Shown: positions 57,443 to 63,173, counted from the first letter of the stretch. The stretch: 64,000 nt of DNA from Bacteroidia bacterium (GCA_020054095.1 JAGVMA010000025.1:18321-82320); one strand, 5' to 3'. Numbers and translations are program-made. Notes: generated by a model from the letters alone, not told the origin.

Positions 57443-57802
57443 TTAAGCGTTAGCCGCTTCTTTTTTGGTTTGTTTTGCTTTGTTTTTACGTTTTTCGGCA
57501 TACTCAATTGCATGCTTATCTAGCTTAAGCGTTAAGAAACGTAGGATGCGCTCATCGCGCTTGTATTCTACCTCTAATTTACTGATGGTTTCACCGGAAG
57601 CAGTAAATTGGAATAAATGGTAAAAACCTGTGCTTTTCTTTTGGATGGGGTAAGCCAGTTTTTTCAAGCCCCAATGCTCTTCATTCAGGATTTTTGCACC
57701 TGCATCTACAAGTAACTTTTTGTACTTGCTTACCGCCTCCTTTGCCTGCTCATCAGACAAAACGGGAGTTAAAATGAAGACGGTTTCATAGTTGTTTTGC
57801 AT
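57443..57802 (-). CDS. rpsF: 30S ribosomal protein S6
   Basis: YE.VFIL.P.LS...........K.....GA.I......G...LAY.I............F. Confidence 0.9.
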
Positions 57803-57855
57803 TTTACTTTTGTTTTTTATTGGTTATTAATTGTTTATCCCTTAAAAAAGGGATG

Positions 57856-57886
57856 CAAATGTAATAAAATTGGCATAACGAGCAAA
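57856..57886 (-). promoter_or_regulatory. Bacteroidetes sigma-A-type promoter of the rpsF-rpsR-rplI operon (TTTG-N19-TAcaTTTG)
   Basis: Minus strand atatTTGctcgttatgccaattttatTAcaTTTGcatccc. Spacing and motifs fit TTTG/TAnnTTTG. 5'-proximal hairpin atccctttttt aagggat follows. Confidence 0.45.
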
Positions 57887-58034
57887 TATTGTTTTGTTCT
57901 TTTTGGGACATTTAAAAGAATTATCTTTTAGCTAATTCAATCAATAATTTTACTCGCACTATCGTATAAAAAGTATTTTTCAACATATTGCCCTACTTAT
58001 GCCGAAGCACAGCAATTTTCTTGGCTTGGTATTG

Positions 58035-58043
58035 TATATTTGG
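58035..58043 (+). promoter_or_regulatory. Candidate -7 box (TAtaTTTG) upstream of the Type IIL RM gene
   Basis: gtaTAtaTTTGgaaac, 17 nt upstream of ATG 58060. Weak -33 TTG. Confidence 0.3.
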
Positions 58044-58059
58044 AAACTTTTATAGCAAT

Positions 58060-60879
58060 ATGACCAAAGAGCAGGCAAAAGCCACGATAGATAAACTTGT
58101 TGAACGATTTGAGGAACACCGCAAAGAATACCATTTGCCCGATTATAACGAGCAAAAGGCTCGGCAGGATTTTATTAATCCGTTTTTTAAAGCACTTGGT
58201 TGTGACATTGATAACGAAAAAGGAGCATCCGAAGCATATCGCGAAGTAATTTACGAAGACAAAGTAGTAGTGCGTGGAAAAGCAAAAGCACCCGACTATG
58301 GTTTTCGTTTGGCAGGAAGCGGAAAAAAAAGATTGTTTTTTGTTGAAGCAAAAAAACCATCCGTTGTGCTAAAAACAAATAAAGAATCCGCATATCAATT
58401 AAAACGGTACGGAAGTAGCGCACAGGCTCATGTTTCTATTCTCACAAATTTTGAAGATTTTATTGTTTACGATTGTTCACGAGTTCCAAATCTTAACGAC
58501 AGTGCAAGCGTTGCACGTTTAAAGCACATTCATTTTCAAGATTACGGAAAAGAATTTGATTTTATTTACGACACATTTTCGCACGAAGCAGTTACAAAAG
58601 GACGTTTTGATAAATTCGTACAAAGTGATGCCAATAAAAAAGGAACCGACACGCTGGATAAACGATTTGTAAAAAGTCTTGATGAGTGGCGTTTGTATCT
58701 TGCTAAAAGCATTGCATTTAATAACCGAAAACTGAACGATGAAGAAATAAATTTTTCCGTTCAGCAAACGCTCGACCGTTTAATATTCATGCGCTTTTGC
58801 GAAGACCGCGCAGTAGAGCCCGATGCTCAATTGCAAAAAGCAGTTTCCAAAGGCGATTCATATAAAAATCTTGTTGATCTTTTTAAACAAGCCGATGATA
58901 AATACAATTCCGGACTTTTCGATTTTAAGAAAGACGTAATCACTCCCAAACTTAAAATTGATAACAAAGTTTTAAAAATCATCATTAACGAATTATATTT
59001 TCCATTATGTAATTTCGATTTTCGTGTAATGCCCGTTGAAGTATTGGGTAATGCCTACGAGCAGTTCCTTGGAAAAGTAATACGCACAACACCTGCACGC
59101 AGTGTAAAAATTGAAGAAAAACCCGAAGTGCGAAAAGCGGGCGGAGTATTTTATACACCACAATACATTGTTGAATATATCGTAAAAAACACAGTAGGAA
59201 AATTAATTGACGGAAAATCGCCAAAGGAAATTGAGAAAATAAAAATTGTTGACCCTGCCTGTGGTAGCGGTTCATTCTTGGTTGGAGCATTTGAATATTT
59301 GCTCAATCATCACGTTAATTATTACCACAAAAAAGGATATGCCACCCGAAAAGGAAAAGATAATCCTTTTACCACGCAAGGAACACTAACTACACACGAA
59401 AAAAAACGCATCCTTATCAATAATATTTTTGGTGTTGATATTGATGCCAATGCAGTTGAAGTAACCAAGCTGAGTTTGTTGCTCAAATGTATGGAAGGCG
59501 AAACAGCCGCCAGTATTCAGCATCAAATGAGTTTGTTTCACGAGCGAGTATTGCCTAACATTGACAACAATATTAAAGATGGTAACAGTTTAATTGATAC
59601 TGACATTTATGATAGTGAAATTGATTTAGGTTACGAGAAAAAAATTAAGCCTTTCTCTTGGAAAAAAGGATTTCCTGAAGTATTTAAGCAAGGTGGATTT
59701 GATGTAGTTATTGGAAATCCGCCTTATGTAATGCTTCAAAATTTAGAAACAAGAGAAGCATTTGATTATTGTTTAAAGAAATTTCAGTCTGCTAAATACA
59801 AAATCGACACGTATCAACTTTTTACTGAGCAATCTCTCAAACTTATAAATGATAAAGGTGTTTTAGGATTTATTACTCCAAATACTTTTCTTAAAAATAT
59901 TCATGCTGAACCTTTAAGGAAATTTATCCTCAATAATGCTATTATAAATGAAATATTATTATTTAAGTATCCTGTATTTGTAGATGCAAGCGTTGACACT
60001 TGTGTATTTGTATTTGAGAAAGGGAAATCCTCATCTAAAAATGAATTAAGTGTAAAGCAATCTGAAATTTCTTTTGAGATAAAAGAGCTAAGCTCCGTTA
60101 AGCAAGCGGACTTTATAAAAAATAATAGAACTGATTTTAATCTTTTAATTTCAGGTAAGGATTCTGAAATACTTAACAAAATAAATAAGGTATCGGAGCC
60201 TCTTGAAACATTTTGCGATGCATATTTTGGCATTCAAACTTTTGACAGAGAAACATTTGTAAGCACCAAAAAAATAAATAAAAATTATGAACCCGTTATT
60301 GATGGCGGAAATATTGAGCCATATTATCTCAAACCATCAACGGATTATGTAAATTATATTCCTTCTTCAATAAAGAGTGGAGGTAACGAGTCTATTTATA
60401 GACAAAACAGGGTTTGTATTCGACAAATAGGAGCATATCCAATCGCAACCTTTGTTCCAGCAGGGATTTTTACTCTTAATACAATCTATAATGTTTATTT
60501 AAAAGAGAAGGATGCCGCTAATCTAAAATTCATACTTGGAATTATTAACTCAAGCACAATACAGTTCTTTTGGAAAAAAAATAATTCTGACGAGAAAAAA
60601 ACCTTTCCGAAAATCAAAAAGGAAGCCATCCTTTCAATTCCAATTCCAATGGTAAAGAAAGATGTTAAAAGAAAACAAAGTCATGATGAAATAATAAAAA
60701 ATGTTGAGTTCCTTTTAAAATTAAACGAAGAAATAAGAGCAGAAAAACTTCAAACTAAAATTGAGCAGTTAAAACTGCGAATTGAACATAGTGAGGAAAA
60801 AATAAACCAATTAGTTTATGAACTATACGATTTAACAGAGAAAGAAATCGCCATTATAGAAAATGCAGGCAAAAACTAA
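58060..60879 (+). CDS. MmeI-family Type IIL restriction-modification enzyme (N-terminal PD-ExK nuclease, helical linker, gamma-class N6-adenine MTase, C-terminal TRD)
   Basis: PDYGF...FFVEAKKP (PD...EAK). LDRLIFMRFCEDRAVEP (MmeI/PglX LxRLxFxxFAED hallmark). FYTPQYIV, IVDPACGSGSFLV (motif I), VIGNPPYV (motif IV). Start set at MTKEQAKA. Confidence 0.75.
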   Translation: MTKEQAKATIDKLVERFEEHRKEYHLPDYNEQKARQDFINPFFKALGCDIDNEKGASEAYREVIYEDKVVVRGKAKAPDYGFRLAGSGKKRLFFVEAKKPSVVLKTNKESAYQLKRYGSSAQAHVSILTNFEDFIVYDCSRVPNLNDSASVARLKHIHFQDYGKEFDFIYDTFSHEAVTKGRFDKFVQSDANKKGTDTLDKRFVKSLDEWRLYLAKSIAFNNRKLNDEEINFSVQQTLDRLIFMRFCEDRAVEPDAQLQKAVSKGDSYKNLVDLFKQADDKYNSGLFDFKKDVITPKLKIDNKVLKIIINELYFPLCNFDFRVMPVEVLGNAYEQFLGKVIRTTPARSVKIEEKPEVRKAGGVFYTPQYIVEYIVKNTVGKLIDGKSPKEIEKIKIVDPACGSGSFLVGAFEYLLNHHVNYYHKKGYATRKGKDNPFTTQGTLTTHEKKRILINNIFGVDIDANAVEVTKLSLLLKCMEGETAASIQHQMSLFHERVLPNIDNNIKDGNSLIDTDIYDSEIDLGYEKKIKPFSWKKGFPEVFKQGGFDVVIGNPPYVMLQNLETREAFDYCLKKFQSAKYKIDTYQLFTEQSLKLINDKGVLGFITPNTFLKNIHAEPLRKFILNNAIINEILLFKYPVFVDASVDTCVFVFEKGKSSSKNELSVKQSEISFEIKELSSVKQADFIKNNRTDFNLLISGKDSEILNKINKVSEPLETFCDAYFGIQTFDRETFVSTKKINKNYEPVIDGGNIEPYYLKPSTDYVNYIPSSIKSGGNESIYRQNRVCIRQIGAYPIATFVPAGIFTLNTIYNVYLKEKDAANLKFILGIINSSTIQFFWKKNNSDEKKTFPKIKKEAILSIPIPMVKKDVKRKQSHDEIIKNVEFLLKLNEEIRAEKLQTKIEQLKLRIEHSEEKINQLVYELYDLTEKEIAIIENAGKN

Positions 60880-60957
60880 AAACATGACGATTCGCGAACA
60901 CATATATTCAAAAAACAAGAGTGATCAAATTAAAATTGTGGAGGATAAAAGTGCGTA

Positions 60958-61568
60958 GTCCCGTAGGGACGTACAGTTTGTAGAAAAATAAAAACATATA
61001 GAAAACAAGCTCCGTAGGAGCGACCTGAAAATGCCTAATACCTATACACAACTATATATTCAAATTGTTTTTGCCGTAAAGGGACGTGAGAATTTAGTTT
61101 CAAAAAATAACCGAGAAGAATTACATAAATACATTACGGGTATTGTAAAAAATAGGGGGCAAAAGATGATATCTGTTTTTTGTATGCCCGATCATACACA
61201 TTTGTTGGTTGGCATAAAGCCATCTATTTCAATTTCCGATTTAGTAAGAGACATTAAGGCCGGTGCTTCAAATTTTGTGAACGAGCAGAAATGGGTAAAA
61301 GGAAAATTTAATTGGCAGGAGGGGTTTGGAGCATTTTCTTATTCAAGAAGCCAAGTTGATACTGTAGCCCAGTACATTTTAAACCAAGAGGAGCATCATA
61401 AAAAAAATACTTTTAAAGAAGAATACATTGATTTTCTTGAAAAATTTGAAATTGATTACGATGAAAAATATTTGTTTGAATGGATTGCATTATGAACACA
61501 TACCGCTCCTACGGAGCTTATAACGGAATGGAATTGTTTTTCTACAAACAGATTGCTCCTACAGAGCA
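60958..61568 (+). mobile_element. IS200/IS605-like or RAYT-like element: Y1 HUH transposase flanked by REP-like 13-bp palindromes in inverted orientation
   Basis: Left: gtcccgtagggac, cagtttgtagaaaaa, agctccgtaggagcg. Right: cgctcctacggagct, tttttctacaaac, tgctcctacagagca. Exact inverted matches. No TSD, as expected for this family. Confidence 0.7.
61031..61495 (+). CDS. tnpA: IS200/IS605-family Y1 (HUH) transposase TnpA / REP-associated tyrosine transposase-like
   Basis: HuH motif MPDHTHLLV. Catalytic Tyr region VAQYILNQEEHH. 154 aa, typical size. Confidence 0.8.
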   Translation: MPNTYTQLYIQIVFAVKGRENLVSKNNREELHKYITGIVKNRGQKMISVFCMPDHTHLLVGIKPSISISDLVRDIKAGASNFVNEQKWVKGKFNWQEGFGAFSYSRSQVDTVAQYILNQEEHHKKNTFKEEYIDFLEKFEIDYDEKYLFEWIAL

Positions 61569-61611
61569 ACAGGTAAAAATGCAGGATAATTTTTATTTTA
61601 AGATAAAACAA

Positions 61612-61713
61612 CGGATTGAACATAGTGAAGAAAAAATAAACCAATTAGTTTATGAGCTTTACAATTTAACCGAGAAAGAAATCGCCATAATCGAAAATTC
61701 AAACAAATACTAA
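61612..61713 (+). pseudogene. Diverged duplicate of the 3' end of the Type IIL RM gene (C-terminal tail remnant)
   Basis: Encodes ...KQRIEHSEEKINQLVYELYNLTEKEIAIIENSNKY versus RM C-terminus LRIEHSEEKINQLVYELYDLTEKEIAIIENAGKN. About 88% nucleotide identity, continuing past the stop for about 80 bp. Confidence 0.55.
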
Positions 61714-61786
61714 AACATGGCGATTCGCGAACACATAAATATTTTAAACTCAAGTGAGCAAATTAAAATAATAGAAGGAGGGACGA

Positions 61787-62791
61787 ATGAGTAGTAACTC
61801 TATTATTCTTTATACAACACCACAAGGCAACATTAAAGTAGAAGTTATTTTTGAGGGTGAAACTTTTTGGCTTACTCAAAAAGCAATGACAAAACTGTTT
61901 GGAGTTGAAGTGCCTGCAATAAGCAAACATTTAAAAAATATTTTTGAAACAAAAGAGTTGAATCAACCTTCAGTTGTTTCCAAAATGGAAACAACTGCCG
62001 CTGATGGTAAAAACTATGCAACTACATACTACCGCTTGGAAGCAATTTTAGCAGTTGGCTATCGGGTTAATTCAACTGAAGCTACTCAATTCAGAATTTG
62101 GGCAACCAATACGCTTAAGGAATTTGTTACTAAAGGTTTTGTGTTGGATGATGAACGCCTTAAGCAAGGGAAAAATTTTGGAAAAGATTATTTTGATGAG
62201 CTACTGGAACGAATACGAGAAATTCGTGCGAGCGAAAGAAGGTTTTACCAAAAAATTACTGACCTATATGCACTTAGTATTGATTACAATAAAGAAGATA
62301 AAACCACACAAGATTTTTTTTCATCAGTACAAAATAAATTACATTGGGCTATTACGGGCAAAACCGCAGCCGAAATAATTTATACCAAAGCTGATGCAAA
62401 AGAAATTTACATGGGTTTAAAAACATGGAAATTTGCCCCTCATGGAAAAATTTTGAAAAGCGATGTGTCGGTTGCAAAATACTATTTGAACGAAGCACAT
62501 ATTTCTGAGCTTAATCGCATTGTTTCTGCTTATTTAGATTTAGCTGAAAACAATGCTCAGAGACAACAACTAATGTACATGAAAGATTGGAACAAATTTC
62601 TTTCCAACTTTTTACAATTATCCAACTACCCAATTTTGAAAGATAAGGGAAAGGTAACTATGTTGGAAGCTAAACTGAAAGCCGAAACCGAATATGACAA
62701 ATACAGAATAATACAAGATAAAAATTACGAATCGGATTTTGATAAGGAAATAAAAAAAATAAGGAATAGAAAAGGAGGGGCGAATGAGTAA
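61787..62791 (+). CDS. RhuM-family (virulence protein RhuM) protein
   Basis: N-terminal EV.FEGETFWLTQKAM..LF.V......H..NIF..EL and YRLEAILAVGYRV.S...TQFR.WAT..L.E match the Virulence_RhuM family. AGGAGGG RBS 6 nt upstream. Confidence 0.7.
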   Translation: MSSNSIILYTTPQGNIKVEVIFEGETFWLTQKAMTKLFGVEVPAISKHLKNIFETKELNQPSVVSKMETTAADGKNYATTYYRLEAILAVGYRVNSTEATQFRIWATNTLKEFVTKGFVLDDERLKQGKNFGKDYFDELLERIREIRASERRFYQKITDLYALSIDYNKEDKTTQDFFSSVQNKLHWAITGKTAAEIIYTKADAKEIYMGLKTWKFAPHGKILKSDVSVAKYYLNEAHISELNRIVSAYLDLAENNAQRQQLMYMKDWNKFLSNFLQLSNYPILKDKGKVTMLEAKLKAETEYDKYRIIQDKNYESDFDKEIKKIRNRKGGANE

Positions 62792-63173
62792 CGACCCACG
62801 TATACGCCTTGCGCTTGATAATTGGGATGCCTATGTAGCGCAATTAGCAACCATGCCCGATAAAAAATTGGTTGAAAAATTAGAAGTAATTAATATGCAG
62901 GCGGTAATTGCACAGGAAAAAAATATAACTTCTTCCTCAGCATTGCTTGAAATTTGGTGGCGACAAGTAGTTGAAGCCCGCACCTACAAAGCAGAAAACA
63001 ATATTCCGGATGCGCCAAATGAAATTGAATTAGCTATTGCCGATATTGAAACGTATGTTGCAAAATCGGAAGAACGCCAGGAACTGCTAAATGAATTTAC
63101 GCAACCTGTTCAACAATTTCGCCCAAAAATTCAGCAGCAACAGGGTAGCGATAGCCAACTAAGTTTGTTTTGA
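62784..63173 (+). CDS. Hypothetical 129-aa protein translationally coupled to the RhuM-family gene
   Basis: ATGAGTAA overlap with the RhuM-family gene stop. Near-identical RBS/start context GGAGGGGCGAATGAGTA. Helical, no TM. Confidence 0.4.
   Translation: MSNDPRIRLALDNWDAYVAQLATMPDKKLVEKLEVINMQAVIAQEKNITSSSALLEIWWRQVVEARTYKAENNIPDAPNEIELAIADIETYVAKSEERQELLNEFTQPVQQFRPKIQQQQGSDSQLSLF

What the first reader, a model, noticed from the sequence alone, without database searches (positions are those of the whole stretch)
60775..61790. IS200/RAYT-like transposase with REP-like palindromes, bracketed by diverged copies of the RM gene 3' end
Three families of 13-15-bp palindromes on the left (gtcccgtagggac, cagtttgtagaaaaa, agctccgtaggagcg) recur as exact inverted counterparts on the right (cgctcctacggagct, tttttctacaaac, tgctcctacagagca). 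This is the REP/RAYT or IS200 subterminal-hairpin architecture. Unusually, the element sits between two about-180-bp direct repeats of roughly 88% identity: 60775..60957 is the authentic 3' end of the Type IIL RM gene plus about 80 bp downstream, and 61612..61790 is a second copy that runs straight into the RhuM-family gene start. The IS200/IS605 family makes no target duplications, so this looks like recombination between two RM-RhuM-like loci or an old segmental duplication. The copy-A junction (ggaggataaaaGTGcgtagtcc) is disrupted exactly at the position of the RhuM-family gene RBS/ATG in copy B.
Basis: seen in the sequence. Interest (0 to 1): 0.6.

Follow-up and report, generated by a model that had tools for sequence, protein, structure and literature searches.

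The report
Hairpin-flanked Y1 transposase gene in swapped restriction locus
A single-copy, conserved IS200-like "tyrosine transposase" gene with two hairpins on each side sits at the end of a restriction-enzyme gene, and the 180-base repeats around it are most likely two different versions of that gene's tail left behind by recombination between strains, not marks of transposition; it is an instructive but largely ordinary piece of defence-locus turnover.

Summary
A 154-aa Y1/HUH transposase ORF (61031-61495) lies between two 65-nt arms that are inverted copies of each other. The module is bracketed by direct repeats, 60767-60957 and 61601-61794 (87% identity in the coding part, 81% in the rest).

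The protein is IS200-like (Quentin subclass 1.2: DHTH, WQ, Y---Q--HH), not a canonical RAYT. It is under strong purifying selection and widespread in Bacteroidota. The hairpin pairs recur beside most relatives, yet they cluster next to the gene rather than dispersing: there are none elsewhere in this window.

Related operons have the Type IIG RM gene overlapping a 128-136-aa ORF (orf129), with no rhuM and no Y1 gene. Here that junction has accumulated a 75-nt older terminus scar, rhuM and the Y1 module.

A near-identical strain (L001) differs only in a mosaic 2.7-kb tract, 58951-61623. This tract replaces the RM specificity half and ends inside copy B.

The repeats are therefore best read as two alleles of the RM tail retained by recombination, not target duplication. 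How the first duplication arose is unresolved. An unrelated locus (L063, xdhA) shows the same bracket.

The parts
58060..60879 (+). Type IIG restriction-modification gene (939 aa from the ATG; the ORF is open from TTG 57988).
   Evidence: Pfam Eco57I 1.6e-44, TaqI_C, N6_Mtase, MmeI_Mtase. PADLOC REase_MTase_IIG 9e-197. It is a full-length ortholog of P0122, P0123 and P0125 with the same specificity half.
58951..61623 (.). Tract that differs from the otherwise identical strain L001; it is a mosaic recombination tract. Divergence is 8% in 58951-59729. The specificity half 59730-60955 is unalignable. Divergence is about 14% in the left arm, 2.5% in the 5' part of the Y1 gene, and about 20% in 61318-61623.
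   Evidence: There are 2 mismatches in 57752-58950 and none in 61624-63017. Y1 dS is 0.09 for codons 1-96 and 0.95 for codons 97-150.
60767..60879 (+). Copy A, coding part: the last ~37 codons of the live RM gene (..LRIEHSEEKINQLVYELYDLTEKEIAIIENAGKN*).
60880..60958 (+). Copy A, 'scar1': a degenerate older RM terminus (small ORF MTIREHIYSKNKSDQIKIVEDKSA*). Its TAG (60956-60958) abuts and overlaps the first hairpin.
   Evidence: It aligns with copy B, with L172 (RM-scar1-orf127) and with L083.
60958..61022 (+). Left arm. It contains hairpin GTCCC-GTA-GGGAC (60958-60970), motif CAGTTTGTAGAAAAA (60974-60988) and hairpin GCTCC-GTA-GGAGC (61009-61021).
   Evidence: The same layout is found beside relatives.
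61031..61495 (+). Y1/HUH tyrosine transposase homolog (154 aa). Motifs: HUH = DHTH, WQ, and catalytic Tyr in YILNQEEHH.
   Evidence: PF01797. NCBIfam transpos_IS200 scores 68 bits against a cut-off of 55. The best PDB matches are the ISDra2 and IS608 TnpA structures, with the motifs aligned. dN/dS is 0.04-0.14.
61504..61568 (-). Right arm, the inverted copy of the left arm. It contains hairpin GCTCC-TAC-GGAGC (61505-61517), motif TTTTTCTACAAACAG (61537-61551) and imperfect hairpin GCTCC-TAC-AGAGC (61555-61567).
61570..61600 (+). 31 nt of strongly diverged sequence. It may be the old 5' part of the RM remnant (..VKMQDNFYFK..).
   Evidence: About 60% identical between window and L001, and only weakly similar to RM_A. 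This reading is an inference.
61601..61713 (+). Copy B, coding part: a dead remnant of an RM 3' end (..KQRIEHSEEKINQLVYELYNLTEKEIAIIENSNKY*). The frame and stop are preserved.
   Evidence: tblastn 86%, E 4.5e-12. pN/pS against copy A is 0.20.
61714..61794 (+). Copy B 'scar1' (MAIREHINILNSSEQIKIIEGGTNE*). It ends in the canonical RM terminus and the overlapping ATGAGTA that now starts rhuM.
61787..62791 (+). RhuM-family gene (PADLOC PDC-S05). It is itself an insertion into the RM/orf129 overlap, flanked by AAGGAGGGrCGAATGAGTA at 61775-61793 and 62772-62790.
   Evidence: Pfam 2e-107, PADLOC, repeat. rhuM is absent from the canonical operons L162, L163, L166 and L172-L174.
62784..63173 (+). orf129: a conserved partner, of unknown function, of this Type IIG family. 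In relatives it overlaps the RM stop codon.
   Evidence: No Pfam, NCBIfam or PADLOC hit.

Best explanation
The core is a domesticated-looking, single-copy IS200-like Y1 (HUH) gene. Its cognate DNA sites are an inverted pair of hairpin-plus-CTGTTTGTAGAAAA units on each side, so the layout is that of a RAYT. The module is lodged at the very end of a Type IIG RM gene. In related operons that junction is a tight RM/orf129 overlap. Here it has accumulated, in layers, an older terminus scar, rhuM and the Y1 module.

The 180-bp bracketing repeats are two diverged alleles of the unit 'last ~37 RM codons + scar'. Copy A is the working end of the present RM gene. Copy B is a dead remnant. They differ because this locus is repeatedly overwritten by homologous recombination with DNA from related lineages. 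Those exchanges swap the RM specificity half, and the Y1 module rides along. The left crossover falls in the conserved methylase part. The right crossover falls in the conserved tail sequence kept in copy B.

Shown:
- the identity of the parts;
- conservation of the hairpin layout across the family;
- the canonical empty architecture;
- the 2.7-kb mosaic exchange tract ending inside copy B;
- the excess of synonymous differences between A and B.

Inferred:
- that A and B were never identical at this site, i.e. that they are alleles from different lineages;
- that the enzyme still binds or cuts its hairpins as ssDNA, as IS608, ISDra2 and TnpA-REP do;
- how the very first junction arose.
For: - Family and activity motifs. 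Purifying selection, dN/dS 0.04-0.14.
- More than 8000 homologs in Bacteroidia.
- Perfect GC-rich proximal hairpins lie upstream at 60 of 86 related loci and downstream at 69 of 86. Stems carry compensatory changes (GCTCC, GCCTC, GCCCC, ACCCC, GCACC, GTCCC).
- Canonical RM/orf129 overlap without rhuM or Y1 in L162, L163, L166 and L174, and RM-scar1-orf127 in L172.
- L001 is identical in the flanks and carries a mosaic divergent tract 58951-61623 with a different specificity half.
- A versus B in the RM frame gives 8 synonymous and 7 non-synonymous differences, pN/pS 0.20, p 0.003 against equal rates.
- Similarity jumps from about 50% to 88% at ~61601.
- Allelic substitution of the specificity domain in Type IIG genes is a described phenomenon (PMC2853133).
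Against: - Among the nine RM tails sampled, A and B are each other's nearest relatives (88% against 83% or less). That fits an in-situ duplication as well as exchange between close lineages.
- No donor allele was found.
- Homologous exchange explains why the copies differ. It does not explain why a gene tail came to stand on both sides of the module in the first place.
- A second, unrelated locus has the same bracket (L063: xdhA tail on both sides of the Y1 module). This hints at a mechanism tied to the element itself.
- L001 is a short Logan contig from a metagenome run, so a chimeric assembly path cannot be fully excluded.
- The pN/pS test rests on 15 differences.
Confidence: 0.55

Rival explanations
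1. In-situ 'insertion with long target duplication'. The Y1 module (612 nt plus ~31 nt) entered the RM tail once and duplicated about 190-230 nt of target. The two copies then drifted apart and were partly re-homogenised by gene conversion.
For: - A and B are mutual nearest neighbours among the sampled alleles.
- Both share the lineage-specific scar1.
- Long, variable target duplications are described around RM genes (PMC2853133).
- Here such repeats surround rhuM in 12 of 68 loci, at 78-94% identity.
- L063 shows the same bracket around the Y1 module.
- The old-looking part 61570-61600 fits an ancient event.
Against: - pN/pS of 0.20 between a live gene end and a supposedly neutral remnant is lower than the ~0.55 expected. 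I estimate p of about 0.04 from the counts.
- Copy B keeps its frame and stop with no indel over 111 nt.
- The Y1 family makes no target duplication in its characterised relatives (established knowledge of IS200/IS605).
- The mechanism of long target duplication is itself unknown.
Confidence: 0.27
2. Flank-carrying transposition by the Y1 enzyme. The left cut is made at a pseudo-site ~190 nt upstream, inside the neighbouring gene. The excised single-stranded circle therefore carries that gene's tail. When it integrates at the same site of an orthologous gene, it rebuilds the gene and leaves the resident tail as the right-hand copy.
For: - Two unrelated genes (RM here, xdhA in L063) show tail-module-tail with the module exactly at the novel joint.
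- The divergence pattern looks like donor against recipient.
- GTAG, the motif in every hairpin loop and in the linear motif, also precedes the left junction (GCGTAG|TCCC) and the equivalent point of copy B (GAGTAG|TAAC).
- Y1 genes also lie inside other RM operons: hsdS upstream at 3 loci, hsdR downstream at 4, and a different Y1 subfamily at the same RM end in L083.
Against: - Only 2 independent loci of about 58 tested show such a bracket.
- L001 has ATAG, not GTAG, at the junction.
- No circle, no cleavage data and no second copy are available.
- The family behaves as single-copy and syntenic within Chryseobacterium and Flavobacterium, sitting between a 3-hydroxyacyl-CoA dehydrogenase gene and a thiolase gene in 19-21 loci.
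- Landing in the orthologous site of another genome would need more than a 4-nt target.
Confidence: 0.1
3. It is an ordinary active IS200/IS605 insertion sequence that transposed here recently, and the flanking similarity is just conservation among RM gene tails.
For: NCBIfam and PDB place the protein with IS200-type TnpA. RM tails of unrelated alleles are 70-83% identical to one another.
Against: - The arms are inverted, not in the same orientation as IS200/IS605 ends.
- There is one copy in 64 kb, and no second copy or solo arm.
- The copy in a strain with identical flanks is 2.5-20% diverged, so the insertion is old.
- Copy B lies downstream of a complete RM gene and includes the non-coding scar, which gene conservation cannot explain.
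- The family is nearly absent from plasmids (2 of 72,556) and absent from phages.
Confidence: 0.03

Closest known systems
TnpA-Y1 subclass 1.2 of Quentin et al. 2018 (PMC6006769)
   Same: It has the HuH motif DHxH, the WQ motif and the signature Y---Q--HH (here YILNQEEHH). It is ~150 aa long with a specific C-terminal tail, has low copy number, and occurs in Bacteroidetes.
   Different: [quoted passage not shown] Here, most of the 86 related loci (the 84 relatives fetched, plus the window and L001) carry conserved inverted hairpin pairs, with GTAG in the loop and a CTGTTTGTAGAAAA motif. The central HuH residue is Thr rather than Ile or Val.
RAYT / TnpA-REP with REP and REPIN sequences (Nunvar 2010 PMC2817692; Corneloup 2021 PMC8266576)
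   Same: It is a Y1 gene flanked by two hairpin units per side in inverted orientation, with GTAG-containing units. It is single-copy, syntenic within genera, and under purifying selection. Occasional extra doublets and arrays lie near the gene (L012, L025, L028, L031, L168-L170).
   Different: - The protein falls below the RAYT model cut-off (32 against 80 bits).
- GTAG lies in the loop and in a separate linear motif, not at the 5' foot of the hairpin.
- The units are not dispersed. There are 68 within 400 nt of the gene, against 7 in 620 kb farther away, 0 in 605 kb of unrelated Bacteroidota-rich loci, and 0 elsewhere in this window.
IS200/IS605 insertion sequences (IS608, ISDra2)
   Same: These give the best structural and sequence matches, with the HUH and Tyr aligned. 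The NCBIfam IS200 model is passed. The element is small with subterminal hairpins and is co-oriented with its neighbours.
   Different: The ends are inverted rather than in the same orientation. There is no multicopy behaviour and no tnpB. The insertion is old and vertically kept, and it is bracketed by long repeats that the IS family does not make.
Allelic substitution of the Type IIG specificity domain, and 'insertion with long target duplication' at RM loci (Furuta, Abe & Kobayashi 2010, PMC2853133)
   Same: Strains with near-identical flanks differ in the specificity half of a Type IIG gene. The inserted DNA is flanked by direct repeats longer than 30 bp that correspond to a single copy in 'empty' relatives such as L172.
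   Different: The bracketed insert is a Y1 module, not R and M genes. The repeats are 13-19% diverged. The exchange tract carries a transposase-like gene along with the specificity domain.

Membership tests
Y1_Tnp / HUH single-Tyr transposase superfamily (PF01797) | Full-length match to the domain model above its curated cut-off. | tested here: met
   86.1 bits against a cut-off of 23, profile positions 2-121 of 121.
Y1_Tnp / HUH single-Tyr transposase superfamily (PF01797) | HUH motif and catalytic Tyr present. | tested here: met
   DHTH aligns with the DHVH of ISDra2 TnpA, and the Tyr of VAQYILN aligns with the Tyr of IQKYIES in that chain, which I take from memory to be the catalytic Tyr. 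L001 has DHTY.
TnpA-Y1 subclass 1.2 (Quentin 2018) | Y---Q--HH signature, WQ motif, DH[IV]H, ~148 aa. | tested here: met
   YILNQEEHH, NWQEG, DHTH (Thr variant), 154 aa.
TnpA-Y1 subclass 1.2 (Quentin 2018) | Low copy number; found in Bacteroidetes or Cyanobacteria. | tested here: met
   One copy in 64 kb. Only one genome appears twice among the 80 best genome hits, nearly all of which are labelled Bacteroidota. The whole source genome was not available.
TnpA-Y1 subclass 1.2 (Quentin 2018) | No cognate REP or terminal secondary structures, as reported for the subclass. | tested here: not met
   Conserved inverted hairpin pairs lie beside most relatives. This contradicts a description, not a definition.
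RAYT / TnpA-REP | Gene flanked by REPs in inverted orientation. | tested here: met
   Two units on each side, with the arms inverted. The same holds in relatives.
RAYT / TnpA-REP | RAYT-specific protein motifs (family model). | tested here: not met
   NF047646 REP_Tyr_transpos scores 31.8 bits against a cut-off of 80.
RAYT / TnpA-REP | Cognate REPs present in many copies across the genome. | tested here: not met
   There are none elsewhere in the window. In relatives they are about 60-fold concentrated within 400 nt of the gene. The full genome was not available, so this is not final.
IS200/IS605 insertion sequence | Transposase passes the IS200 family model. | tested here: met
   NF033573 scores 68.4 bits against a cut-off of 55.
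IS200/IS605 insertion sequence | Left and right subterminal hairpins on the same strand and in the same orientation. | tested here: not met
   The arms are reverse complements of each other (I1, I3, I4).
IS200/IS605 insertion sequence | Several near-identical copies per genome, showing recent mobility. | tested here: inconclusive
   There is a single copy in the window. The copy in a strain with identical flanks is 2.5-20% diverged. The whole genome was not seen.
Insertion with long target duplication (Nobusato 2000 / Furuta 2010) | The insert is flanked by direct repeats longer than 30 bp that align to one copy at an empty site. | tested here: met
   The repeats are ~190 nt. L172 has a single RM-tail-scar1 unit followed directly by the orf129 homolog. 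L172 is only a distant relative (77% RM identity).
Insertion with long target duplication (Nobusato 2000 / Furuta 2010) | The insert carries R and M genes and no other mobile element. | tested here: not met
   The insert is the Y1 module.

The most novel reading that the evidence does not exclude
The hairpin-flanked subclass-1.2 Y1 module may be a 'self-repairing' passenger. It would move, or be moved between genomes, together with the 3' end of the gene upstream of it. On arrival it would rebuild that gene and leave the resident tail as a scar. This would explain how the module can sit inside operons (RM-rhuM, xdhA-xdhB, hsdS-hsdR, and dehydrogenase-thiolase fatty-acid gene pairs) without killing them. 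It would also make the module a carrier of RM specificity cassettes between strains.
Probability: 0.1. Interest if true: 0.75.

Novelty: new variant of a known kind. Interest (0 to 1): 0.4.

Why it matters
Three things would matter.

First, a large and very conserved Bacteroidota branch of IS200-like proteins (subclass 1.2) was described as having no cognate DNA structures. It turns out to carry a conserved hairpin-pair signature. That gives biochemists defined substrates for an enzyme of unknown role.

Second, the locus is a clean natural example of how restriction specificity is exchanged between otherwise identical strains. It also shows how dead gene tails persist as homology arms.

Third, long diverged direct repeats around inserted genes recur: around the Y1 module at two unrelated loci, and around rhuM at 12 of 68 loci. 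This suggests a common, still unexplained insertion route at defence loci.

None of this overturns current views. The element itself is a known kind.

Tried and rejected
- Exact-protein look-up of the Y1 gene found nothing, although the cluster table lists it on a 137,782-bp contig. The source genome could therefore not be scanned for further hairpin units.
- The source species is not among the GTDB representatives. The best Y1 hit was 84% identical.
- The metagenome scan with RhuM found no close allele of this locus. The best was 85% at protein level.
- scar1 and the duplicated RBS junction were searched in all fetched loci and occur only in L001.
- Rfam gave no match in 60500-62000.
- The sigma-70 promoter scan was at background. 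The terminator-like hits are simply the hairpins read on the minus strand.
- Direct-repeat screening around all Y1 loci was confounded by extra hairpin doublets, so a protein-level screen replaced it.
- A covariation test on hairpins that had been pre-selected for perfect pairing would have been circular, so it was dropped.
- The exact look-up for orf129 gave only a 1.3-kb fragment.
- Rejected: a recent IS insertion, a chance similarity of the repeats, and a phage or plasmid origin.

Full report
**Observation.**
- ORF 61031-61495 (+, 154 aa) is a full-length Y1_Tnp domain (PF01797, E 2.6e-24).
- It is flanked by a left arm (60958-61022) and a right arm (61504-61568), each 65 nt. The two arms are reverse complements in layout: outer hairpin, linear motif C(A/T)GTTTGTAGAAAAA, ~20 nt, inner hairpin GCTCC-GTA-GGAGC.
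- The inner hairpins match exactly over 16 nt. The linear motifs differ at one base. The outer hairpins are analogous but have different stems.
- As single-stranded DNA each arm folds into the two predicted hairpins, z -2.3 to -3.5.
- The module is bracketed by direct repeats, 60767-60957 and 61601-61794. Identity is 87% over the 115-nt coding part and 81% over the next 58 nt; blastn gives E 1e-33.
- None of the hairpin or motif sequences occurs elsewhere in the 64-kb window.

**The protein.**
- It passes NCBI's IS200 model (68 bits, cut-off 55) and fails the RAYT model (32 bits, cut-off 80).
- Its best solved relatives are the ISDra2 and IS608 TnpA structures, with the HUH (here DHTH) and the catalytic Tyr aligned.
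- The motifs DHTH, WQ and YILNQEEHH are the signature of subclass 1.2 of Quentin et al. 2018. That subclass was described as low-copy, restricted to Bacteroidetes and Cyanobacteria, not IS-like, and without REPs (PMC6006769).
- The family is very large (more than 8000 hits, many at 80-90% identity).
- It is under strong purifying selection, dN/dS 0.04-0.14 with synonymous sites saturated against other genomes.
- It is almost absent from plasmids (2 of 72,556 records) and absent from phages.

**The hairpins are a family trait but are not dispersed.**
- In the 86 loci analysed (the 84 relatives fetched, plus the window and L001), a perfect GC-rich 5-bp/3-nt hairpin lies within 45 nt upstream of the ORF in 60 and within 60 nt downstream in 69.
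- Stems are mostly GCTCC, with compensatory variants GCCTC, GCCCC, ACCCC, GCACC and GTCCC. The outer unit 'hairpin + CTGTTTGTAGA' recurs with still more stem variants.
- Some genomes carry extra doublets or short arrays next to the gene (L012, L025, L028, L031, L168-L170).
- Strictly defined units number 68 within 400 nt of the gene. Only 7 occur in the remaining 620 kb of those loci, and none in 605 kb of RhuM-selected loci.
- The layout is therefore that of a RAYT: a gene between inverted REP pairs (PMC2817692). High-copy dispersal, which defines REPs, is not seen in the data I could reach.
- The gene sits in different places in different lineages. In 19-21 Chryseobacterium/Flavobacterium-type loci it lies between a 3-hydroxyacyl-CoA dehydrogenase gene and a thiolase gene. 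It lies downstream of glyS in its closest relatives. In 3-4 loci it lies beside type I restriction genes (hsdS upstream in 3, hsdR downstream in 4). It is nearly always co-oriented with its neighbours.

**The locus.** The closest homologs of the Type IIG RM protein (P0122 88%, P0123 83%, P0125 76%, P0127 72%) share its specificity half over the full length.
- In each, a 127-136-aa ORF follows and overlaps the RM stop codon (..EIKIIEGGGNE*, with ATGAGTAA overlapping). That ORF is the homolog of window orf129 (62784-63173). These operons have no rhuM and no Y1 gene, and they sit in unrelated genomic contexts.
- L172 shows an intermediate: RM (..IIENSNNN*), then a 70-nt 'scar1' that ends in a second, canonical-looking terminus (..QIAIVEGGSNE*), then the orf129 homolog.
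- The '80 bp downstream' in both copy A and copy B of the window is this same scar1.
- rhuM (PADLOC candidate PDC-S05) is itself an insertion into the terminus/orf129 overlap. The sequence AAGGAGGGrCGAATGAGTA stands both before rhuM (61775-61793) and at its 3' end before orf129 (62772-62790).

**Comparison with a sister strain.** L001 is a 5.2-kb Logan contig found through the identical RhuM protein.
- It has 2 mismatches to the window in 57752-58950 and none in 61624-63017.
- Between these blocks lies a mosaic tract: 8% divergence in 58951-59729, and an unalignable specificity half in 59730-60955 (22-36% amino-acid identity). Divergence is about 14% in the left arm, 2.5% in the first two thirds of the Y1 gene, and about 20% from 61318 to 61623.
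- Y1 dS is 0.09 in codons 1-96 and 0.95 in codons 97-150.
- The right end of the tract lies inside copy B, at the start of the conserved ..IEHSEEKINQLVYELY.. block.
- In L001 the RM gene has no scar1. Its stop codon TAG directly abuts the first hairpin, at the same position as the TAG that ends scar1 in the window.
- Both alleles thus carry the Y1 module at the end of an RM terminus, and the whole block 'RM specificity half + tail + Y1 module' has been exchanged by recombination.
- The L001 Y1 gene has DHTY in place of DHTH.
- Substitution of the specificity domain of Type IIG genes between strains is a described phenomenon (PMC2853133).

**What copies A and B are.**
- In the RM frame they differ by 8 synonymous and 7 non-synonymous changes: pS 0.40, pN 0.08, ratio 0.20, p 0.003 against equal rates. 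My estimate against the ~0.55 expected for a live end versus a neutral remnant is p of about 0.04.
- Copy B keeps its frame and stop without any indel.
- Similarity to the RM gene jumps from about 50% to 88% at ~61601. The 31 nt between the last hairpin and that point are also very different between window and L001.
- This fits an old junction whose right-hand remnant has been partly renewed by exchange or conversion with live RM tails.
- Against this, A and B are each other's nearest relatives among nine sampled tails (88% against 83% or less), and no donor was found. An old in-situ duplication therefore remains possible.

**A second case, and a wider pattern.** A protein-level screen of 60 Y1 loci for remnants of the upstream gene's tail downstream of the module found the window, L001 and one unrelated locus.
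- That locus, L063, reads: xdhA, hairpin pair, Y1, hairpin pair, a 95-nt in-frame remnant of the xdhA tail (64% amino-acid identity, pN/pS 0.35), a second copy of the left hairpin pair, then xdhB.
- Separately, 12 of 68 RhuM loci have direct repeats of local sequence around rhuM, 26-185 nt at 78-94% identity. None of 68 mismatched controls did.
- L083 combines both themes: the end of an RM gene, a Y1 gene of another sub-lineage (46% identity) with its own hairpins, scar1, a 29-codon fragment of the orf129 homolog, rhuM, scar1 again, and the orf129 homolog.

**Mechanism.**
- Best supported (about 0.55): the module is an old resident of this RM terminus. The locus is repeatedly overwritten by homologous recombination that swaps RM specificity. 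Copy B is a dead tail that serves as right-hand homology, and copy A is the tail of the currently installed allele.
- What the enzyme does is inferred from its relatives: binding and cleavage/joining of its hairpins as single-stranded DNA, as shown for IS608, ISDra2 and TnpA-REP (PMC8266576).
- Rival 1 (about 0.27): a single insertion with long target duplication, followed by drift.
- Rival 2 (about 0.1): the enzyme mobilises the module together with the upstream gene tail. This would account for L063 and for GTAG at the left junction, but it has no direct support.
- Rival 3 (about 0.03): a recent ordinary IS insertion. This is contradicted by the inverted arms, the single copy and the age of the insertion.

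**Novelty and caveats.**
- The element is a known kind, a subclass-1.2 Y1 gene in a RAYT-like layout.
- The new points are the conserved hairpin-pair signature of a subclass reported to lack one, the module's inclusion in an RM specificity-exchange tract, and the recurrent long diverged brackets.
- The full source genome was not available.
- L001 is a short metagenomic contig.
- The selection tests rest on 15-18 differences.
- The hairpin counts use strict patterns that undercount diverged units.

Noticed in passing
window 61775-61793 and 62772-62790; loci L083, L085, L086, L093, L105, L112 and others: RhuM-family genes (PADLOC candidate PDC-S05) are often bracketed by long, diverged direct repeats of the local sequence. 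This holds at 12 of 68 loci (26-185 nt, 78-94% identity) and at 0 of 68 mismatched controls. It resembles the 'insertion with long target duplication' described for RM genes.
   Followed up: partly
L063 4800-5765: This is a second, unrelated case of the Y1 module bracketed by copies of the upstream gene's 3' end. The order is: xdhA, hairpin pair, Y1, hairpin pair, a 95-nt in-frame xdhA tail remnant, a second copy of the left hairpin pair, then xdhB.
   Followed up: partly
window 62784-63173; L162 7804-8190, L163 7813-8223, L166 7843-8229, L172 5271-5654, L174 6811-7194: A conserved 127-136-aa ORF of unknown function overlaps, or in L172 closely follows, the stop codon of this Type IIG RM family. 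It has no Pfam, NCBIfam or PADLOC hit. The two-gene module sits in unrelated genomic contexts, so it is probably mobile as a unit.
   Followed up: partly
window 60880-60958 and 61714-61794; L172 5202-5274; L083 770-860 and 1960-2040: A ~75-nt 'scar' lies between the RM stop and the next gene. It contains a small ORF (M-x-IREHI...) and ends in a second copy of the canonical RM terminus. In L083 it lies just to the right of a different Y1 module, so it might be the footprint of an excised module.
   Followed up: partly
L001 3330-3345: The Y1 gene of the sister strain reads DHTY instead of DHTH, so the second His of the HUH motif is lost. The gene otherwise shows dN/dS of 0.14 against the window copy. 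It may be a recently inactivated copy.
   Followed up: no
L031 4240-4680: A RhuM gene is truncated at residue ~116 by a hairpin doublet of the same type as the right arm of the Y1 gene 400 nt downstream. This shows that such doublets can be copied to nearby sites.
   Followed up: no
L083 1-48: The first 48 nt of this public metagenome contig are Illumina adapter sequence (..AGATCGGAAGAGCACACGTCTGAACTCCAGTCAC, read in reverse complement).
   Followed up: no
window 60860-60869 and 61576-61585: The exact 10-mer AAAATGCAGG occurs at the end of the live RM gene and again 7 nt after the last hairpin of the Y1 module. It is either a short target-duplication-like repeat or chance (rough p 0.01-0.03).
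   Followed up: no
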